Shown: positions 2,968 to 33,191 of the stretch, one piece after another
How the letters are laid out: the number at the start of each line of letters is the position of its first letter
Numbering within the stretch: the stretch's first letter is position 1
IMG/VR virus record: IMGVR_UViG_2703718855_000002
Origin: a virus
Taxonomy: Duplodnaviria > Heunggongvirae > Uroviricota > Caudoviricetes
Direction: 5' to 3' (one strand)
DNA: 39,413 nt
The notes under the pieces: generated by a model
Told to the model about the DNA's origin: nothing
Seen by the model: the letters and a program-made list of their open reading frames with translations, nothing else
The model's database searches: none
Made by a program: the position numbers and the translations under genes

Positions 2968-3216
2968 TCATGCAGCGTTGCTCACAGGACGATATACACG
3001 TTGCTGAACAGGAGGCTTTTTACCCTGGAACTCTGCCGGGCTTGCTGCCTGACGTTCATCAAGCCAACGCTCAACTTCATCACGGTTCCATGCGCAGCGT
3101 TTATCGGTGATATACCAGCGTTTAGGAAATTCCCCTGCGCGCTCCATACGGTCGATAGTGCTCCATGACAGTGGCACCACCGCCAGGAGTTCCTTCTTAC
3201 CTAATGCACCTTTCAT
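2968..3216 (-). CDS. AlpA-family transcriptional regulator / excisionase-like DNA-binding protein
   Basis: 82 aa; LLAVVPLSWSTIDRMERAGEFPKRW...AWNRDEVERWL matches AlpA/HTH_17 pattern; SD AGAGAGGT upstream of ATG 3216. Confidence 0.7.
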   Translation of the reverse strand: MKGALGKKELLAVVPLSWSTIDRMERAGEFPKRWYITDKRCAWNRDEVERWLDERQAASPAEFQGKKPPVQQRVYRPVSNAA

Positions 3217-3265
3217 AAATACCTCTCTTGGTTGCAGTGCGGCGCGCGTGGCGCCGCGGTGGTGG

Positions 3266-4147
3266 TTACATAGATGTTTCGTTTAATTCTTCCCGACGAA
3301 CGCTGTAAACGTCGGTGGCTTTTGCCAGCAGTTCGTCATCATCTGAAAGTTTTTGTGCAATGTATTTGTAAGCCTTATCCAGTTCGGAGACAGTGATGTA
3401 ATTCATCGCTGCGCTGGTAAAGGCCATCAGCATTTCTTCTGGATCACGGCTATCCGCTTTACGCGTTTGCTCATCAGGCTTTTTCGCTGGTTTAGCGTTG
3501 ATCAGACTGTTCATTCCCGCAGCAGTGGTCGTTTGCGGAGTAATGTCTCGCTCAACGCGCGGTGCCGTTTCCTGTAATTCGTCAGGGGTGTAAACACCGA
3601 GAAGTACATCAGGAGCGTGCAGGCGAGCCCATCGTTTCGTGCAAAGATAGGCAAGCTGCTGGCGCGGATCCTGTTCCCACAATGGAGAGTTACGCACTCC
3701 GGCTTGCGCCATACTGATGGTAAGCTCACGGGGTTCTGCTTCTCCTTTAAGAACTGCTGACACAGTTACCGTCAGATTCGGTGATTTATCTGTTTTGCCG
3801 TTAACATTCGACCAGTCACCGCTCCAGCGATAATTCAGGCGTGTCGCTAGCAGGCTGGAAGAGGATACGACCGCGTTTACCAACTGTGCTTCGTAGCCTA
3901 ACGTTCCGTTTACCACATGCGTTTTCTGCGCCACGGCGAAAGGATTCATTCCCCACTGTGCCGCCTGCATGGTCACCGCCAGACAATCGGCAGGTTTGCC
4001 TTCAAGATGTTTCGGTACAGTCGCTTTGCTTTGTGACATCAACTCCGCGAAACGCACCAGTTGATTCATGCCCTCCGGGCTGAAGATTGCCGCAGCAGTA
4101 CCTACAGTTGCGCCTGGTTGTGATGTGATTGCGATATCATTGCTCAT
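3266..4147 (-). CDS. Single-strand annealing protein (RecT/Bet-like recombinase)
   Basis: 293 aa; start ATG overlaps stop of upstream exonuclease (ATGA), the classic exo-SSAP pair; family assignment from memory, not searched. Confidence 0.55.
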   Translation of the reverse strand: MSNDIAITSQPGATVGTAAAIFSPEGMNQLVRFAELMSQSKATVPKHLEGKPADCLAVTMQAAQWGMNPFAVAQKTHVVNGTLGYEAQLVNAVVSSSSLLATRLNYRWSGDWSNVNGKTDKSPNLTVTVSAVLKGEAEPRELTISMAQAGVRNSPLWEQDPRQQLAYLCTKRWARLHAPDVLLGVYTPDELQETAPRVERDITPQTTTAAGMNSLINAKPAKKPDEQTRKADSRDPEEMLMAFTSAAMNYITVSELDKAYKYIAQKLSDDDELLAKATDVYSVRREELNETSM

Positions 4148-6689: not shown

Positions 6690-6890
6690 ATGGAAATCAT
6701 TACACGTATTGATGCCGCAAAGCGCGGACTTAAACGCTATTACACCGGAAAACAATGTAAGCACGGACATGACAGTGAACGCTGGGTTTACAACGGACAC
6801 TGTGTTGAGTGCACCATGGAATCAAACCGTCGCATCAGGGCAGAGATTAAGCAGATCATGATTAATTCCTCCCCACAACACTCAAGCTGA
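6690..6890 (+). CDS. Small Cys/His-rich (zinc-ribbon-like) protein
   Basis: CKHGHDSERWVYNGHCVEC; start uncertain (ATG 6690 or 6654, TTG 6627). Confidence 0.35.
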   Translation: MEIITRIDAAKRGLKRYYTGKQCKHGHDSERWVYNGHCVECTMESNRRIRAEIKQIMINSSPQHSS

Positions 6891-6905
6891 TAGCGGAGAT
6901 TAATC

Positions 6906-7721
6906 ATGAGCAGACATGCAACAGATTGGGCCTGGGAGACAGATCCAGGCAGCTCATCATTAAAGCTCATACTGCTCTCGATGGCTGACAGAGCCGATGA
7001 ATATAACCTCTGCTACCCCAGCATAGAACGCCTAGTTAAAGACACTTGCCTGAATAAAAAAACCGTGCAGGCCGGACTTATATCGCTCATGAAAATGGGG
7101 CTTATTTCAGATACCGGAGAGAGAAAGGGAGCGACGAAAAGAGTGCGGGTTTTCTCTCTTAATATAACCAAAAACGGGAACATTAAAGGCAACCGGGAAG
7201 GGGGTAATGAACCCGAAAACGGTAATGTTACCGAAAACGGGAATATACCCAAAAACGGGATGTTGAATGATCCCAAAAACGGGATGTTGAATGATCCCAA
7301 AAACGGGATCCAGAACCAGTCATATAACCAGTCATTTAACCAAGAGAGGGAGAGCAGGACAAAAACCGGGGATTCTGTGCCTCATGACCCCGGCGCAAAC
7401 AACGCTGTGATGAATAACTTTGTTCCTCCAGGTGGGCCAGGGCAATTAGGCAAATTTGTCATGCATGAACAATGGCAGCCATCAGATGACTTTCTTCGGA
7501 AAAGCTCATTGCAGGGGATCTACCTGGACAGTCTGCCAACGGCACAGGAACTTGCAGAGTTCAGAATTTACTGGATGGCTGAGGGTAAGGCATACCATCA
7601 GGCACAGTGGGAGCAGAAGCTGGCAAGGCGGCTGCAGATTAGCAGACAGAAGCAATCAACATTACCTGATAACAACGTTCCGCACTGGAACAGCCCTGAA
7701 GCATGGGAGGATTTCTTGTGA
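6906..7721 (+). CDS. Replication initiation protein (lambda O-like; N-terminal HTH, C-terminal DnaT-like domain)
   Basis: 271 aa; internal iteron array encodes an Asn/Gly-rich linker; immediately upstream of P-like gene with overlapping stop/start. Confidence 0.75.
   Translation: MSRHATDWAWETDPGSSSLKLILLSMADRADEYNLCYPSIERLVKDTCLNKKTVQAGLISLMKMGLISDTGERKGATKRVRVFSLNITKNGNIKGNREGGNEPENGNVTENGNIPKNGMLNDPKNGMLNDPKNGIQNQSYNQSFNQERESRTKTGDSVPHDPGANNAVMNNFVPPGGPGQLGKFVMHEQWQPSDDFLRKSSLQGIYLDSLPTAQELAEFRIYWMAEGKAYHQAQWEQKLARRLQISRQKQSTLPDNNVPHWNSPEAWEDFL
7167..7313. repeat. Iteron array (candidate replication origin) inside O-like gene
   Basis: Six direct repeats with core CC(A/G)AAAACGG(G/T)A; two perfect 24-bp tandem copies CCCAAAAACGGGATGTTGAATGAT at 7248..7271 and 7272..7295; followed by CCAGTCAT(A/T)TAACC x2. 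Confidence 0.65.
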
Positions 7722-28506: not shown

Positions 28507-30981
28507 ATGAGACAGGAATGTATACAAGCGGTCCAGCAGGTGGCGCAGCGCGCGTTAACGGCGCGAGAAATACAGAACATTGAAGACCGCATTTATCGAA
28601 ATATGCGCTCCATTGCTCGTGATGACCCGATGTCGTGGCGACAACTTTCCGAATCAGAACGGTTGTATCGTGCAGCACAATTGGCATCTGAAGAATTACA
28701 GCGAGAAGCGGCATTAAAGAAACGTCGTGTGGCCCTCACTATAGCCGCACGTCAGAGATTGGATAAATTTATCAATAGCTATCAAGGGGCTGATGGGAAA
28801 CTTGGCGCTCTTAACCGTACTATTGCTTTTAATGCAGACGGTAAATCGAATTTCCTCTCTGTTGAATCCAGAACAAAAGCCACTCGTGATTATGCATTGA
28901 GTCAATTGCAGGAGGCATTTGAAGCAGTTGATCCTCGCTTTTTTGGCCTGTTTGAAGATGAAGCGGGCGTGCGTGACCTGGTATATGAAATGCGAGGGCA
29001 AAATACTGGCAATGCTAAAGCAAGAAAAGGTGCTAAGGCGTGGAGAGAAGTGACAGATCTACTTCGCCGCCGGTTTAATGATGCTGGTGGGGACATTGGC
29101 TATCTCGAAAACTGGGGGATCCCTCAACATCATTCTATGGAAAAGGTTGGGGCGGTATCAAAGGATAAGTGGGTTAGCGATGTTATAGGTAAGCTGGATC
29201 GCAAATATTATACCCGAGCCGATGGACAACTGATGAACGATGCCGAGTTGTCTGCATTTCTTGGAGAGGCTTATAACACGATCGCTACTGGTGGGCTGAA
29301 TAAGCTTACTGATACCGGAATGCGAATTTCCGGCGCACGTGCTAACCGTGGTAATGCATCACGACAGATACATTTCAAAGATGCAGATTCCTATCTCCAA
29401 TATCAACAACTTTATGGCGATCGCTCTCTATGGGAAATCATGGTCGGTCACCTGGAAGGTATCAGTAAAGATATTGCTCTGGTGGAAACATATGGTCCAA
29501 ACCCCGATCATGTTTTCCGCTCTCTTCTTGATCAGGTGAAGGCAGAAACGGCAACAGCTAACCCGAGTAAAACCGGTAAAGTCGAGCGGCTGGCGAACAA
29601 CACAGAGAATCTGTACAACTTTATTTCCGGAAAGACACAGCCTGTAGCGAATCCGCACATCGCGCGATGGTCTGACAATATCCGCAACTGGCTGGTTGCC
29701 AGCAGACTCGGTTCCGCGTTGCTGTCATCGTTCTCTGATCTTGGGACCATGTATCTGTCTGCGAAGGTGACCAACCTTCCAATGAACCAGTTATTCCGCA
29801 ACCAGCTTGAAGCTATGGACCCAACGAACCGTACAGAACTTGCGCGGGCGCGCCGCGCTGGTCTGGCGATGGAATCTCTACTTGGCAGCGTTAACCGCTG
29901 GGCGATGGATAATATGGGGCCGTCAGTGTCTCGTTGGGCGGCAACGGCGGTAATGCGTGCCAGTGGGCTTACAGCATGGTCAGATGCGCACAAGCGCGCC
30001 TATGGCGTAACCATGATGGGAAGCCTGGGAGAAGTAGTGTCACGGACACCAGACCTTCGTAGCCTCGATGATTCTGATTTTCGCATCCTGAAAAGCAAAG
30101 GGATTACTGACACAGACTGGAGCGTATGGAAGCTGGCGCAACAGGAGGACTGGGGGAACGGCAATAATACGATGCTGACACCGGAAAGCATTATGCGTAT
30201 CCCTGATTCAGCAGTTAAACATCTTGGTGAGCCTGAACGCGTGAAATTTGAGGCAATGCGTAAACTGCTCGGTGCCGTAACTGAAGAAGTTGATATGGCT
30301 GTTATTACACCTGGAGCACGTGAGCAGCTGATAACCGGTTCTGGTATTCAGCGTGGAACATGGAAAGGTGAATTAACGAGAAGTGTTTTCCTGTTTAAAT
30401 CGTTCCCTATCTCGGTTGTTATGCGTCACTGGTCACGCGCTATGGGTATGCCGTCTGCTGGTGGTCGTGCGGCATATATTGCGACGTTTATTGTCAGTAC
30501 GACCATTCTTGGCGCTTTGTCGCAGCAACTTAACGACCTTGCGTCTGGTCGTAATCCTCGAGAGATGACAGGAGAAGATGCCGCAAAATTCTGGCTTGGT
30601 GCTCTACTGAAAGGTGGTGGTCTTGGCCTTTACGGTGACTTTTTATTGTCAGATCACACTAGGTACGGAAGCGGCGCGCTGGCGTCGATGCTTGGCCCGG
30701 TAGCTGGTCTGGTTGATGACGTAGTGAAGATTGCTCAGGGCATACCGTTAAATGCTGTGGAAGGGAAGAGTGAGCAGACTGGTGGTGATCTGGTGAAGCT
30801 GGGGAAAGGTTTGATGCCAGGTGCGAATCTCTGGTACTTAAAGGCGGCTCTCGATCATATGATCTTTAACCAGATGCAGGAGTATTTTTCACCAGGCTAT
30901 TTGCGTAAAATGGAGCAACGTTCGAAGAAAGAGTTTAATCAGACATACTGGTGGCGACCTCAGGATGTCACTCCGCAATAA
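28507..30981 (+). CDS. Internal virion / ejection protein (gp16-like, part 2)
   Basis: 824-aa ORF continuing the module. Confidence 0.5.
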   Translation: MRQECIQAVQQVAQRALTAREIQNIEDRIYRNMRSIARDDPMSWRQLSESERLYRAAQLASEELQREAALKKRRVALTIAARQRLDKFINSYQGADGKLGALNRTIAFNADGKSNFLSVESRTKATRDYALSQLQEAFEAVDPRFFGLFEDEAGVRDLVYEMRGQNTGNAKARKGAKAWREVTDLLRRRFNDAGGDIGYLENWGIPQHHSMEKVGAVSKDKWVSDVIGKLDRKYYTRADGQLMNDAELSAFLGEAYNTIATGGLNKLTDTGMRISGARANRGNASRQIHFKDADSYLQYQQLYGDRSLWEIMVGHLEGISKDIALVETYGPNPDHVFRSLLDQVKAETATANPSKTGKVERLANNTENLYNFISGKTQPVANPHIARWSDNIRNWLVASRLGSALLSSFSDLGTMYLSAKVTNLPMNQLFRNQLEAMDPTNRTELARARRAGLAMESLLGSVNRWAMDNMGPSVSRWAATAVMRASGLTAWSDAHKRAYGVTMMGSLGEVVSRTPDLRSLDDSDFRILKSKGITDTDWSVWKLAQQEDWGNGNNTMLTPESIMRIPDSAVKHLGEPERVKFEAMRKLLGAVTEEVDMAVITPGAREQLITGSGIQRGTWKGELTRSVFLFKSFPISVVMRHWSRAMGMPSAGGRAAYIATFIVSTTILGALSQQLNDLASGRNPREMTGEDAAKFWLGALLKGGGLGLYGDFLLSDHTRYGSGALASMLGPVAGLVDDVVKIAQGIPLNAVEGKSEQTGGDLVKLGKGLMPGANLWYLKAALDHMIFNQMQEYFSPGYLRKMEQRSKKEFNQTYWWRPQDVTPQ

Positions 30982-30990
30982 GGATGAGAA

Positions 30991-31092
30991 ATGATTGCTT
31001 TTATTCTTGTTGTGTTTGCGCTTGTTGCACTTGGCGTTATGAACCGTAATGTATCATTGACGATGGCGAATTTGCTGTTGCAGTTATTTTGA
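30991..31092 (+). CDS. Small hydrophobic peptide (33 aa, single predicted TM)
   Basis: ATG 30991 with SD AAGGATGAG; MIAFILVVFALVALGVMNRNVSLTMANLLLQLF. Confidence 0.25.
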   Translation: MIAFILVVFALVALGVMNRNVSLTMANLLLQLF

Positions 31093-31137
31093 TATTATCT
31101 GGTGTAGCAGGGTACATAGGCTTGTCATAACGTGAGC

Positions 31138-31149
31138 GTGACATGTCAC
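31138..31149. repeat. 12-bp perfect palindrome GTGACATGTCAC (copy 3)
   Basis: Directly abuts terminator hairpin 31150..31167. Confidence 0.6.
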
Positions 31150-31175
31150 AGGCCGCTTTCGCGGCCTTGTTTTTA
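31150..31175 (+). terminator. Rho-independent terminator ending the internal-virion-protein operon
   Basis: AGGCCGC-TTTC-GCGGCCT hairpin followed by TGTTTTT. Confidence 0.65.
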
Positions 31176-31334
31176 ACGAATGCCACCTCCGCCCGGGCGA
31201 GAATCCGCAGAACGCCCACCGCAGCGGGAGCCGTCAGCGGCAGTATCGCTGTCGTGCTGACAACGACCGGCAAAGGCCTGAGTTGAAGCTACCAGAGACA
31301 ACAAAACGAACAGTGCAGCAAATGCTTTTTTCAT
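31173..31334 (-). CDS. Small secreted peptide (53 aa; Sec signal peptide, 2 Cys, Gly-rich mature part)
   Basis: MKKAFAALFVLLSLVASTQAFA then GRCQHDSDTAADGSRCGGRSADSRPGGGGIR; own promoter TTGACG-16-TATAGA at 31375..31348; no strong SD. Confidence 0.4.
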   Translation of the reverse strand: MKKAFAALFVLLSLVASTQAFAGRCQHDSDTAADGSRCGGRSADSRPGGGGIR

Positions 31335-31347
31335 TGTGAAATTTCCA

Positions 31348-31375
31348 TCTATAAGCCACCTCAATGTGGCGTCAA
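31348..31375 (-). promoter_or_regulatory. sigma70-like promoter for small secreted peptide gene
   Basis: -35 TTGACG (31375..31370), 16-bp spacer, -10 TATAGA (31353..31348) on minus strand. Confidence 0.45.
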
Positions 31376-31404
31376 TGAGTGTAGCACTGACTTTTGTTTC
31401 GTCC

Positions 31405-31428
31405 ACAAAAAAGCCCGCGCTGCGGGCT
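31405..31428 (-). terminator. Rho-independent terminator after 210-aa gene
   Basis: Minus-strand hairpin GCCCGC-AGC-GCGGGC followed by TTTTTT, 5 nt after stop. Confidence 0.6.
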
Positions 31429-31432
31429 TCTA

Positions 31433-32065
31433 TTAATGCAGTTTATCTTTGCTTATAACCAGTAGTCTGTGGGTATGCACATCTTTATCACTGCCCCAAC
31501 AGAAATCAGCCCACTGGCTATAGAAATCATCCCATGATGTCATGAAGCTAAGAGGTCTATCTTCTTCAGAGCCATCTGAAACGTATACATTATATCCCGG
31601 GGTGTTTATAGCCCAAGAAATCATTCTTTCCCAGAATCTTCTCCCATCGATTGTTTGTTGCTCATCAGATACAACAATCGCATATTGCTCTAGGAAGAAC
31701 TGAAAAAAAATCTGAGGCAAACCATGAACAGCACGGTCATGAATAACATTAGGCGTACGCCATACCATGATCTGCGTACATGTTCTTTTGGCTTCGACGA
31801 TATCTTCCCGAAAGATTAACTTAACCGCATACACCGTTTCTGGAGTATCGCTGGTAGTAATCATTCTGTAATGATCGCCATTACAAGATTTTACAAGGCG
31901 ATAACCATAAGGTGTTGTGAATCCCGGAAGAACGAAATCAACCACACCTTTCGCTAAGTAGCTTTCGGTGTGACTAGTGTTCTTCTCAGACATGTTCAGT
32001 TTTCTATCGAAATCTGCTTCTGGGATAATGTATGGCATCGCTTTTCTTGTTGTATTTGTTCTCAT
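31433..32065 (-). CDS. Hypothetical protein, no recognisable family (moron; candidate accessory/exclusion function)
   Basis: 210 aa, Trp-rich and acidic; strong SD GGGAGGA; own operator-bearing promoter region and own terminator. Confidence 0.55.
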   Translation of the reverse strand: MRTNTTRKAMPYIIPEADFDRKLNMSEKNTSHTESYLAKGVVDFVLPGFTTPYGYRLVKSCNGDHYRMITTSDTPETVYAVKLIFREDIVEAKRTCTQIMVWRTPNVIHDRAVHGLPQIFFQFFLEQYAIVVSDEQQTIDGRRFWERMISWAINTPGYNVYVSDGSEEDRPLSFMTSWDDFYSQWADFCWGSDKDVHTHRLLVISKDKLH

Positions 32066-32124
32066 TTCGTCCTCCCATGTTTGGCTACAGGACGCGTTTT
32101 GAAGGGAAGATTAAAAATGCTTTC

Positions 32125-32139
32125 TTACCCTTGAGGTAA
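32125..32139. promoter_or_regulatory. Operator-like palindrome TTACCCTTGAGGTAA
   Basis: Perfect site 60-74 bp upstream of ATG of 210-aa gene. Confidence 0.5.
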
Positions 32140-32211
32140 TAGTACGCTATTCACCCCCAGTCTGCAATCTGTACAGAATTATTTAAAGGCACATCCCTGT
32201 GCCGCCGCCCG

Positions 32212-32922
32212 TCAGAAGAACCCAGCCTTGTCGTTGATGTACTCCGCGTGCGTCTGGATATCACGCAGGCATTTGCTCACACCGACGATGTAGCAGAACA
32301 TGGTGGTCAGTTCCGCCGCCGCGCCCGATACGTCGTGCCCGTCTTCCTGTAACTGGTTTAGCAGATTCATCAGCAGTGAGCTCTCCGTCAGGCCGAGAAC
32401 ACCAGACGGCGAATGAATCAGGCTACGGTAGCCTGGCTTCAGTGGGGCACTGTAGGTTTTGTTCTCTATCTTCATTGCCTGCATCACTGCTGATGCTGTG
32501 GCGTTGGCTACCTGGTCGGCAACCATCTTTATGCGTTCTTCCTGCGGGAGCGAGTTTTTAATGTAACTTCCGGTGCGGCGGATCTGAGGAAGAACCTCAC
32601 CTGTAACCCATTTACGAAAGCGGTAGGGGATAGTGCCTGGTGTCACCGCATCGCGGCAGCGGAGGATCAGTGTGTAGAGGCCTGACTCGGAGATGATGTT
32701 GATCTCTTTTACTCGGCTATCAAAAATTGCACGATGTTCATGCCCTATGTTGAACATAGACCTTTCATCATCATCCAGTTTTTCAAGTGATTGGGTGACG
32801 TTTTGGATACGCAGCGCACTACAAACGTCTTGGGCTACAAACCATGGTTGGCCATCGATAATGATGGAACGGATAGGGTTAACAGATTCAAATTTGAAGA
32901 TGGCAGTTTGAGCATTAGCCAT
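32212..32922 (-). CDS. Antirepressor (N-terminal Bro-N domain)
   Basis: FKFESVNPIRSIIIDGQPWFVAQDVCSALRI matches Bro-N; C-terminal 60 aa paralogous to product of 33238..33495; ATG 32922 with SD GGAGA. Confidence 0.7.
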   Translation of the reverse strand: MANAQTAIFKFESVNPIRSIIIDGQPWFVAQDVCSALRIQNVTQSLEKLDDDERSMFNIGHEHRAIFDSRVKEINIISESGLYTLILRCRDAVTPGTIPYRFRKWVTGEVLPQIRRTGSYIKNSLPQEERIKMVADQVANATASAVMQAMKIENKTYSAPLKPGYRSLIHSPSGVLGLTESSLLMNLLNQLQEDGHDVSGAAAELTTMFCYIVGVSKCLRDIQTHAEYINDKAGFF

Positions 32923-33077
32923 GGTGGTTATCTCCACTTAGTGATTTTAATCACCACCGCAACGCCAATTACTGGTGGTGAACTGGACAAGGTTGGCGTA
33001 CCGGCCTAAGTGGTACCGGCGTCCTTTCGGACCCCTGCCCAGCCCACCATAATTCGGATATGGCTGTGTTTAACGCA

Positions 33078-33101
33078 TAAAAAAACCACGTCTGGCGTGG
33101 T
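33078..33101 (-). terminator. Rho-independent terminator downstream of small antirepressor-like gene
   Basis: Minus-strand hairpin ACCACG-CCAGA-CGTGGT followed by TTTTTTT. Confidence 0.5.
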
Positions 33102-33191
33102 ATGCGCCACTTAGTAACTCGGGACGCCAATCCCGGCACTGGATTTTGCCAGTGCCCGATTACTATGGCACAAGAGGAGTGCGATGTAAAT

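What the first reader, a model, noticed from the sequence alone, without database searches (positions are those of the whole stretch)
31173..31375. Small secreted Cys-containing peptide gene driven by a near-consensus sigma70 promoter
The minus-strand ORF encodes a textbook Sec signal peptide (MKK, hydrophobic core, AFA cleavage motif) followed by a 31-residue Gly/Ser/Asp-rich peptide with two Cys. A TTGACG-16-TATAGA promoter lies just upstream, giving a leader of only about 7 nt with no strong SD, so it is either a leaderless secreted peptide or a short non-coding RNA. Either would be a lysogenic-conversion candidate.
Basis: seen in the sequence. Interest (0 to 1): 0.55.

Follow-up and report, generated by a model that had tools for sequence, protein, structure and literature searches.

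The report
Phage moron encoding small exported peptide

Summary
The minus-strand ORF 31334..31173 (53 codons) is a genuine protein-coding gene. Across 14 Enterobacterales orthologues all 25 third-codon positions of the core vary, while the peptide stays about 92% identical (pS 0.71, pN 0.11). The MKK / hydrophobic / A-x-A signal peptide is kept in every relative. The 31-residue mature part is more conserved than the signal peptide.

The gene sits in a roughly 290-bp mobile cassette (31137..31428) between two hairpin terminators. The cassette is present in 426 of 5,426 complete E. coli genomes with differing neighbours, and is deleted in phiV10. That makes it a classic phage moron.

This implies a roughly 37-nt leader, so the mRNA is neither leaderless nor an sRNA.

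The mature peptide carries a 26-28-residue motif (C-x12-C, DGSxCGxR...RPGG). It occurs in 356 protein clusters across Proteobacteria and Cyanobacteria and has no Pfam, NCBIfam or PDB counterpart. Function is unknown; a periplasmic envelope-binding or exclusion role is inferred only.

The parts
31407..31431 (-). Intrinsic terminator of the upstream 210-aa gene (stem AGAAGCCCGC/GCGGGCUUUU, then U-run). It is the left edge of the mobile cassette.
   Evidence: Fold -15.3 kcal/mol, z = -2.8. A terminator of varying stem sequence precedes the cassette in other contexts.
31400..31405 (-). Candidate -35 (TGGACG, 4/6) of the comparatively supported promoter P2, 16 nt from the -10.
   Evidence: Sequence. 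TGGATG / TGGGCG / TTGGGG lie at the same place in Klebsiella, Buttiauxella and Kluyvera. The assignment is an inference.
31378..31383 (-). Candidate -10 box TACACT of P2. With the two preceding bases, GCTACACT resembles a sigma-S-type extended -10.
   Evidence: T and A are invariant and the last T nearly invariant across 14 genera-level orthologues. Twelve different TAnnnT variants sit 4-8 nt before the hairpin in 23/29 upstream types, against 4.9 +/- 1.9 in shuffles.
31355..31370 (-). Hairpin GCCAC-attgag-GTGGC, predicted to lie at the very 5' end of the mRNA (TSS expected about 31373-31370).
   Evidence: It folds in the MFE and centroid structures. 77.9% of cells are paired against 22-32% at slides other than -3 (a slide of -3 gives 69.1%). 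Three of 5 pairs show compensatory changes; covariation score 0.378 against 0.264 (2/500 shuffles reach it). Unrelated stems (GCTATC/GATAGC, GGCCAT/ATGGCC) occupy the same position.
31348..31375 (-). It overlaps the hairpin.
   Evidence: Sequence. Not called by the scan. The -35 is absent in other genera, and the box always ends in A.
31342..31346 (-). Weak Shine-Dalgarno-like GGAAA, 7 nt before the ATG.
   Evidence: GGAAA/GGTAAG/AAGGA/AGGT occupy the same position in the orthologues.
31269..31334 (-). Signal peptide codons (MKKAFAALFVLLSLVASTQAFA), with the predicted SPase I site after AFA.
   Evidence: The start is fixed at this ATG because the Klebsiella orthologue has only 2 open codons upstream. 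The A/V/S-x-A pattern before G-x-C is conserved.
31176..31268 (-). Mature 31-residue peptide GRCQHDSDTAADGSRCGGRSADSRPGGGGIR, with core domain C25..G49 and stop codon at 31175-31173.
   Evidence: pS 0.71 against pN 0.11, and 25/25 third positions vary. Invariant residues are C25, C38, R41, G48 and G49. The Cys-Cys spacing is 12 in 208/212 copies. GC is 67.7% against 49.4% for the genome.
31150..31167 (.). GC-rich hairpin AGGCCGC-GAAA-GCGGCCT shared with the convergent late operon. The T-run is on the + strand only; on the peptide's strand a poor U tract follows.
   Evidence: Orthologues in other contexts have a proper T-run on the peptide's strand.
31138..31149 (.). Perfect 12-nt palindrome GTGACATGTCAC at the right edge of the cassette.
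   Evidence: Conserved in the E. coli, Klebsiella, Kluyvera and Buttiauxella versions. Similarity between contexts ends 19-37 nt past the stop. Role unknown.

Best explanation
The feature is a phage moron: an autonomous promoter-ORF-terminator cassette (about 31137..31428, minus strand) carried by a phiV10/epsilon15-like (Uetakevirus) prophage.

Shown here:
- The 53-codon ORF is under strong purifying selection as a protein.
- It begins with a conserved Sec-type signal peptide with an A-x-A site.
- The cassette moves between phage backgrounds.

Inferred for expression:
- Transcription most likely starts about 37 nt upstream of the ATG from a weak promoter. Its conserved part is the -10 box TACACT (31383-31378). 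In E. coli this resembles a sigma-S extended -10.
- The mRNA then opens with a 5-bp 5'-terminal hairpin, probably a stabiliser, followed by a CA-rich box and a weak SD.

Inferred for the product:
- The pre-peptide is exported by Sec and cut after AFA22.
- The 31-residue product is oxidised by DsbA to a C25-C38 loop. It stays in the periplasm as a 3-kDa one-disulfide mini-protein.

Family: the peptide is a stand-alone copy of an undescribed 26-28-residue extracytoplasmic domain, G-x-C-x4-[DQ]-x-A-x-DGS-x-CG-x-R-[SA]A-x-x-RPGG. Elsewhere this domain occurs alone or fused to peptidoglycan-binding domains.

Function (least certain step): it binds a conserved envelope component, and in the lysogen it serves as a fitness or superinfection-exclusion factor.
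For: Coding:
- 25/25 third positions vary against 10 and 8 first and second positions. pS is 0.71 and pN 0.11. Column identity is 0.92 in frame against 0.54-0.56 in the other frames.
- 33 distinct DNA versions encode the identical protein (that set was selected for protein identity).

Signal peptide.

Moron anatomy:
- Flanking hairpins.
- The cassette is whole in 426/5,426 E. coli genomes, next to YafO, DUF2335, DUF4760 or other genes.
- It occurs in TL-2011b next to arc/ant and is deleted in phiV10.
- Similarity between contexts ends 71-90 nt upstream of the ATG and 19-37 nt past the stop.
- GC is 56.8% against 49.4% for the genome and 40.8% for the neighbouring gene.
- PHROG 14503, category 'moron', E = 2e-40.

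Promoter and leader. The sigma-S consensus is taken from PMC5650638 and PMC3367168.

Family breadth:
- 57 species-level genomes, including Rhizobiales, cyanobacteria, Vibrio and Bacteriovorax.
- 356 clusters at E <= 1e-3.
- Domain register.
- Partner domains SH3_3 and PG_binding_1/2.
Against: - No transcript, TSS, protein or export data exist for this gene.
- Both promoter candidates fail the consensus scan. P2 is only 8/12.
- The hairpin is short, so its covariation statistics are modest. A slide of -3 also gives 69% pairing.
- The terminator on the peptide's strand lacks a U-tract in this phage.
- The AF2 model is only moderately confident: pLDDT 72, pTM 0.35.
- Nothing identifies a ligand. 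There is no conserved neighbour, no defence-system hit, and no structural or sequence relative of known function.
- Only 4 of 78 longer members carry wall-binding domains.
- Databases call the protein 'transmembrane anchored', which would mean an uncleaved anchor.
Confidence: 0.7

Rival explanations
1. TTGACG-16-TATAGA is the working promoter, giving a transcript with a leader of about 7 nt and no SD. The peptide would be translated in a near-leaderless mode.
For: The hexamers are present with a good -35 (5/6) and a 16-nt spacer. The box at the '-10' position (CTACACA / TTATAGA) is itself conserved across genera.
Against: The -35 exists only in the E. coli variant. The conserved box always ends in A, not the T that sigma-70 needs at that position, and the scan rejects it. 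The spacer holds a hairpin whose stem covaries and whose loop length varies from 3 to 7 nt, which fits RNA and not a promoter spacer or operator. A conserved SD-like purine run would be left out of such a transcript. True leaderless translation needs a 5'-terminal AUG (established knowledge).
Confidence: 0.12
2. The hydrophobic N-terminus is not cleaved. The product would be a 53-residue type-II membrane-anchored peptide, as the database name 'transmembrane anchored protein' implies. It would display the two-Cys tail in the periplasm, working like MgrB-type small membrane regulators.
For: Names in NCBI and UniProt. PHROG 14503 is described as 'membrane associated protein'. In some longer relatives the domain is followed by a transmembrane segment, so membrane proximity is compatible with the domain.
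Against: Small residues at -3 and -1 (A/V/S-x-A) directly before G-x-C are conserved across the whole family, while the hydrophobic core drifts freely. In many relatives the domain lies at the C-terminus of long soluble exported proteins. The names are automatic annotations without experiments.
Confidence: 0.12
3. The region makes a small regulatory RNA, and the ORF is incidental.
For: Its size (about 200 nt between two terminators) is sRNA-like. The neighbouring immI-like region does encode C4/IsrK-type RNAs.
Against: The codon-position pattern and pN/pS of 0.155. The peptide is conserved across phyla where the DNA is not. No Rfam match at E <= 5 falls on the ORF. Folding is no better than shuffles.
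Confidence: 0.02

Closest known systems
Phage morons encoding small envelope proteins (HK97 gp15, P22 SieA; review PMC3594210)
   Same: It is an independent transcription unit with its own terminators. It is present or absent among related phages, and its GC differs from its neighbours. It encodes a small envelope-directed product. It lies after the ejection/internal-protein genes beside the ant/immI region, as sieA does in P22 (the P22 map is from my own knowledge).
   Different: gp15 and SieA are inner-membrane proteins, whereas this is predicted to be a cleaved soluble periplasmic peptide. There is no sequence similarity and no exclusion phenotype has been tested. Unlike most morons, this family also exists as orphan chromosomal genes in distant phyla.
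Periplasmic superinfection-exclusion proteins (T4 Spackle, P1 Sim; from my own knowledge)
   Same: They are phage-encoded, carry a Sec signal peptide and act in the periplasm.
   Different: They are 3-8 times larger, show no detectable homology and are not found outside phages. The analogy concerns the mode of action only.
Excalibur calcium-binding domain (Pfam PF05901, DxDxDGxxCE)
   Same: It is a short extracytoplasmic module with a Cys pair and an Asp-x-x-x-Asp-Gly-x-x-Cys stretch (D30-T-A-A-D34-G-S-R-C38).
   Different: The Pfam model does not match. The third ligand position is an invariant Ala, and the residue after the Cys is Gly, not Glu. The Cys spacing is 12, against about 30 in Excalibur.
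MgrB-type small membrane peptides with periplasmic Cys pairs (from my own knowledge)
   Same: About 50 residues, with an N-terminal hydrophobic segment and a short periplasmic tail carrying two conserved Cys.
   Different: No similarity. A conserved A-x-A cleavage site is present here. The family is not confined to membrane-anchored forms.

Membership tests
Phage moron (definition in PMC3594210) | Extra DNA present in some and absent in other, otherwise related phages; horizontally mobile | tested here: met
   Absent or deleted in phiV10 and the Salmonella relatives. The same 292 bp occurs in TL-2011b and next to varied neighbours in 426 E. coli genomes.
Phage moron (definition in PMC3594210) | Own terminator | tested here: met
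   Hairpins lie on both sides. On the peptide's strand the downstream one lacks a U-tract in this phage, but has one in orthologues.
Phage moron (definition in PMC3594210) | Own promoter, active in the repressed prophage | tested here: inconclusive
   A conserved TAnnnT box lies just after an upstream terminator. No consensus-grade promoter was found and no expression data are available.
Phage moron (definition in PMC3594210) | GC content different from surrounding genes | tested here: met
   ORF 56.8% (mature part 67.7%), against 49.4% for the genome and 40.8% for the neighbouring gene.
Sec / signal peptidase I substrate | Positive n-region, hydrophobic h-region of 10-15 residues, small residues at -3 and -1, no lipobox | tested here: met
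   MKK; mean Kyte-Doolittle 2.74 over residues 4-16; A-F-A before G23; Cys lies at +3, so there is no L-x-G/A-C lipobox. The pattern is kept family-wide. No dedicated predictor was available.
Sec / signal peptidase I substrate | Demonstrated export and cleavage | not testable with these tools
   Needs a PhoA/Bla fusion or mass spectrometry.
PHROG 14503 ('membrane associated protein', moron category) | Full-length match to the family HMM | tested here: met
   E = 2.3e-40, residues 1-53 on profile positions 1-53. The family has no tested function.
Excalibur (PF05901) | Match to the Pfam model; DxDxDGxxCE calcium loop | tested here: not met
   No Pfam hit at E <= 1, nor in 78 longer members. The motif has an invariant Ala at the third ligand position, and Gly after the Cys.
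Leaderless mRNA | Transcript starts at the start codon | tested here: not met
There is no experimental TSS.
Small non-coding RNA | Conserved structure or sequence without a coding signature; known Rfam family | tested here: not met
Class II microcin / bacteriocin | Double-glycine leader, adjacent ABC exporter and immunity genes | tested here: not met
   The leader is Sec-type. Neighbours are phage genes, and no partner recurs.
Sigma-S-dependent promoter | Extended -10 KCTAYRCTTAA / TCTATACTTAA with C at -13 and a degenerate -35 (PMC5650638, PMC3367168) | tested here: inconclusive
   GCTACACTCAT (31385-31375) matches 9/11, and the -35 is weak. Only 5 of 13 other genera-level orthologues keep C at -13. 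There is no rpoS data.

The most novel reading that the evidence does not exclude
The peptide would be the stand-alone, phage-captured form of an ancient and still undescribed extracytoplasmic mini-domain. The domain has one disulfide, an invariant C-x12-C spacing and the motif DGSxCGxR...RPGG. In this reading the domain binds a universal envelope component, either peptidoglycan or a wall-cleaving enzyme. In the lysogen the free periplasmic copy would block the cell-wall penetration or genome-ejection step of superinfecting phages, possibly switched on by sigma-S in stationary phase.
Probability: 0.15. Interest if true: 0.65.

Novelty: new member of a known kind. Interest (0 to 1): 0.4.

Why it matters
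The gene itself is already catalogued: RefSeq WP_000708858.1, UniProt A0A0A1A7U0, PHROG 14503, seen on more than 1,000 contigs. It has never been studied.

This work adds three things:
- Firm evidence that the gene is translated and selected.
- A corrected regulatory anatomy that tells experimenters where to look for the 5' end.
- The recognition that its 26-28-residue core is a widespread, unmodelled domain shared by enterobacterial prophages, rhizobia and cyanobacteria.

About 8% of complete E. coli genomes, including STEC-associated phages such as TL-2011b, carry the cassette. A role in phage exclusion or envelope physiology would therefore be relevant to phage typing, phage therapy and lysogen fitness. 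A 3-kDa single-disulfide domain is also an easy target for NMR and binding studies.

Tried and rejected
- Pfam, NCBIfam and PADLOC scans of the peptide, of distant members and of 78 longer relatives found no model covering the domain.
- PDB sequence searches with two profiles gave 0 hits at E <= 10.
- The AF2 model has pLDDT 72, and a Foldseek search of the PDB gave 0 hits. The model is too small and too uncertain for fold inference.
- Rfam searches of the window region and of 18 alphaproteobacterial and cyanobacterial loci found no riboswitch or leader motif upstream of the gene.
- An all-against-all comparison of flanking ORFs in 57 loci found no conserved partner outside the Uetakevirus backbone. 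Neighbours in alphaproteobacteria are heterogeneous: a LysR regulator, a resolvase, a Prim-Pol primase and FGase.
- Full-text literature searches for the peptide motifs, the accession and the product name all returned zero papers.
- The 77-codon GTG-extended ORF (31406) was rejected, because the extension overlaps the terminator/promoter and is closed by stops in orthologues.
- Lipoprotein, microcin and sRNA readings were rejected (see the membership tests).
- The count of 24 synonymous and 0 non-synonymous polymorphisms among 80 IMG/VR copies is not used as a selection test. Those loci had been picked for 100% protein identity.

Full report
**Context.** The window is a complete phiV10/epsilon15-like podovirus genome (Uetakevirus) of E. 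coli. The region around the finding is 99% identical to prophages in many E. coli chromosomes. Partial matches occur in phiV10, phiv142-3, HEMP4 and TL-2011b. The finding lies in the variable, leftward-transcribed block between the end of the late structural operon (the 824-aa protein, 28507-30981) and the tail fibre gene (33691-35982). This block also holds a 210-aa gene of unknown function and a BRO-N/Ant-like gene preceded by C4/IsrK-type antisense RNA elements.

**The observation.**
- The promoter is weaker than described. It matches 9 of 12 positions and lacks the T at the last position of the -10.
- The consensus scan finds no promoter in 30800-32300. Shuffled sequence yields about three sites that do meet the scan's criteria.
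- The hairpin after the stop codon carries its T-run on the opposite strand.

**Is it a gene?** Yes.
- Homologues are annotated, without function, as 'transmembrane anchored protein' in E. coli, Shigella, Klebsiella, Citrobacter, Cronobacter, Salmonella, Pectobacterium and Dickeya.
- The exact protein is on at least 1,000 contigs.
- It matches PHROG 14503 end to end.
- In protein alignments the mature part is much better conserved than the signal peptide. The signal peptide keeps only its physical character and the A-x-A site.
- In 14 genus-level orthologues, every one of the 25 third-codon positions of the core C25..G49 varies. Only 10 first and 8 second positions vary.
- pS is 0.71 against pN 0.11. 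The other two reading frames lose conservation.
- The ATG at 31334 is the start. MKK aligns in all orthologues, and upstream in-frame extensions are closed by stop codons, after 2 codons in Klebsiella.
- A purely non-coding role is therefore rejected. There is also no Rfam hit on the ORF, and the 5' part folds no better than shuffles.

**It is a moron.**
- The segment 31137-31428 recurs as a unit. It is whole in 426 of 5,426 complete E. coli genomes, flanked by YafO toxin, DUF2335, DUF4760 or other genes.
- In TL-2011b it lies beside arc/ant.
- In 80 IMG/VR contigs, similarity to the window ends 71-90 nt upstream of the ATG and 19-37 nt past the stop. Only 10 of these share the window's upstream gene.
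- phiV10 keeps just the last roughly 25 nt of the ORF, so its 'PhiV10p22' ORF is a deletion scar.
- The unit is bracketed by a strong upstream terminator and a GC hairpin.
- Its GC content (56.8%, and 67.7% in the mature part) differs from the genome (49.4%) and from the neighbouring gene (40.8%).
- These are the defining features of morons (PMC3594210).
- In Klebsiella, Kluyvera, Buttiauxella and Pantoea the gene occupies the same slot of related prophages.

**Regulatory anatomy.**
- His '-10' corresponds to a conserved box CTACACA. That box always ends in A, which is unsuitable for sigma-70.
- The conserved features are, in order:
  - a TAnnnT box, here TACACT at 31383-31378, seen in twelve different variants including TACAAT, TATGAT and TAAAAT;
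  - a hairpin 4-8 nt downstream, at the expected start site;
  - the CA-rich box;
  - a purine SD-like run 7-14 nt before the ATG.
- The composite of TAnnnT plus a hairpin occurs in 23 of 29 upstream types, against 4.9 +/- 1.9 in shuffles.
- The hairpin covaries (GCCAC/GTGGC, GCCGC/GCGGC, GCCGTC/GATGGC, GCTATC/GATAGC, GGCCAT/ATGGCC) and its loop length varies. In the formal count 77.9% of cells are paired, 3 of 5 pairs carry compensatory changes, and only 2 of 500 shuffles reach the covariation score.
- This fits an RNA hairpin at the 5' end of a roughly 37-nt leader. Such 5'-terminal stem-loops are known to protect E. coli mRNAs from 5'-end-dependent decay (established knowledge). It does not fit a promoter spacer.
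- In E. coli the -10 with its two upstream bases (GCTACACTCAT) matches the sigma-S extended -10 consensus KCTAYRCTTAA at 9 of 11 positions. The -35 (TGGACG) is weak, as is usual for sigma-S promoters (PMC5650638 and PMC3367168).
- The sigma-S reading is a lead, not a result. Only 5 of 13 other genera keep the C at -13.

**The peptide family.**
- A pattern scan of one genome per species found relatives well beyond Enterobacterales. They occur in Mesorhizobium, Rhizobium, Agrobacterium, Bradyrhizobium, Devosia, Methylobacterium, Vibrio, Bacteriovorax, Rhodoferax and several cyanobacteria.
- An exhaustive HMM search of 1.84 billion representatives gave 356 clusters at E <= 1e-3.
- The shared unit is 26-28 residues: G-x-C-x4-[DQ]-x-A-x-DGS-x-CG-x-R-[SA]A-x-x-RPGG. 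The spacing between the two Cys is 12 residues in 208 of 212 copies.
- The domain occurs alone after a signal peptide, at the C-terminus of longer exported proteins, in two or three tandem copies, or before a transmembrane segment.
- A four-Cys variant exists (C-x-C-P-Y...C-G-x-R-S-A-Y...C-Y).
- The few recognisable partner domains are wall-binding ones: SH3_3 and PG_binding_1/2, in 4 of 78 longer members.
- No Pfam or NCBIfam model, PDB sequence, Foldseek match or paper corresponds to it.
- AF2 gives a moderately confident compact core (pLDDT about 81 over residues 31-40) after the signal helix.
- Outside phages there is no conserved neighbour or upstream RNA motif.

**How it most likely works.**
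- Shown: it is a selected coding sequence with a conserved Sec/SPase-I signal, in a mobile, terminator-bracketed cassette.
- Inferred with fair confidence: it is transcribed from the conserved -10 box independently of the late operon. It is exported, cleaved after AFA22 and oxidised to a C25-C38 loop, giving a 3-kDa periplasmic mini-protein.
- Inferred weakly: the domain recognises a ubiquitous envelope component. This would explain its cross-phylum conservation, its stand-alone existence and its occasional fusion to peptidoglycan-binding domains.
- Inferred weakly: the prophage uses it for lysogen fitness or for exclusion of incoming phages. The slot next to the ejection-protein genes and the immI-like region parallels sieA in P22 (my own knowledge). 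HK97 gp15 is a precedent for a moron of this kind (PMC3594210).
- A resemblance to the Excalibur calcium loop (D-x-x-x-D-G-x-x-C) fails the membership test.

**Verdict.** This is a real and well-delimited gene, already present in databases but unstudied. He was wrong about the near-consensus promoter, the leaderless mRNA and the ncRNA alternative. It is a new member of a known kind (a phage moron for a small envelope protein). The added point of interest is that its core is a widespread, unmodelled mini-domain.

Noticed in passing
window 32971-33168 (-), upstream of 32212-32937 (-): Rfam matches above gathering score to C4 antisense RNA (RF01695, 66 bits) and isrK (RF01394, 67 bits). There is also a c4-a1b1 target match just below threshold. 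All sit directly upstream of a BRO-N/Ant-like gene. This looks like a P1/P7-type immI antisense-controlled antirepressor module in a Uetakevirus.
   Followed up: partly
window 30991-31092 (+), about 31047-31049: The small two-TM membrane protein gene at the end of the late operon (46 aa in phiV10 p21 and in RefSeq prophages) has lost one A in CGTAAATG here. It is frameshifted to a 33-aa ORF. This is either a pseudogene or a sequencing error.
   Followed up: yes
L003 (phiV10 NC_007804.2) 2798-2887, equivalent to window 31173-31195: The annotated 29-aa 'PhiV10p22' is a deletion scar. Only the last roughly 25 nt of the peptide ORF survive, joined to Bro-N-related sequence.
   Followed up: yes
window 31138-31149: A perfect 12-nt palindrome GTGACATGTCAC abuts the shared terminator hairpin. 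It is conserved in the E. coli, Klebsiella, Kluyvera and Buttiauxella versions and coincides with the cassette's right boundary. It could be a recombination joint or a protein-binding site.
   Followed up: partly
window 31347-31354 and orthologous positions in L005-L017, L143-L222: A CA-rich box CTACACA (TTATAGA in this phage) lies between the 5' hairpin and the SD. It is the best-conserved non-coding element and is kept even where the hairpin is missing (L172, L180). Its role is unknown.
   Followed up: partly
window 31433-32065 (-): This 210-aa gene matches PHROG 1349 and has no Pfam, NCBIfam or PADLOC hit. Its GC is 40.8% against 49.4% for the genome, and it has its own strong terminator. 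It looks like a second moron directly upstream, present in only 10 of 80 cassette contexts.
   Followed up: partly
L062 (Klebsiella pneumoniae CP089325.1) 6711-7094 and 3056-3907: In the equivalent variable slot of a related Klebsiella prophage, the peptide gene is accompanied by a Rap1a-family (PF18602, T6SS-immunity-like) gene and a DUF6236 gene. This suggests the slot collects envelope and defence cargo.
   Followed up: no
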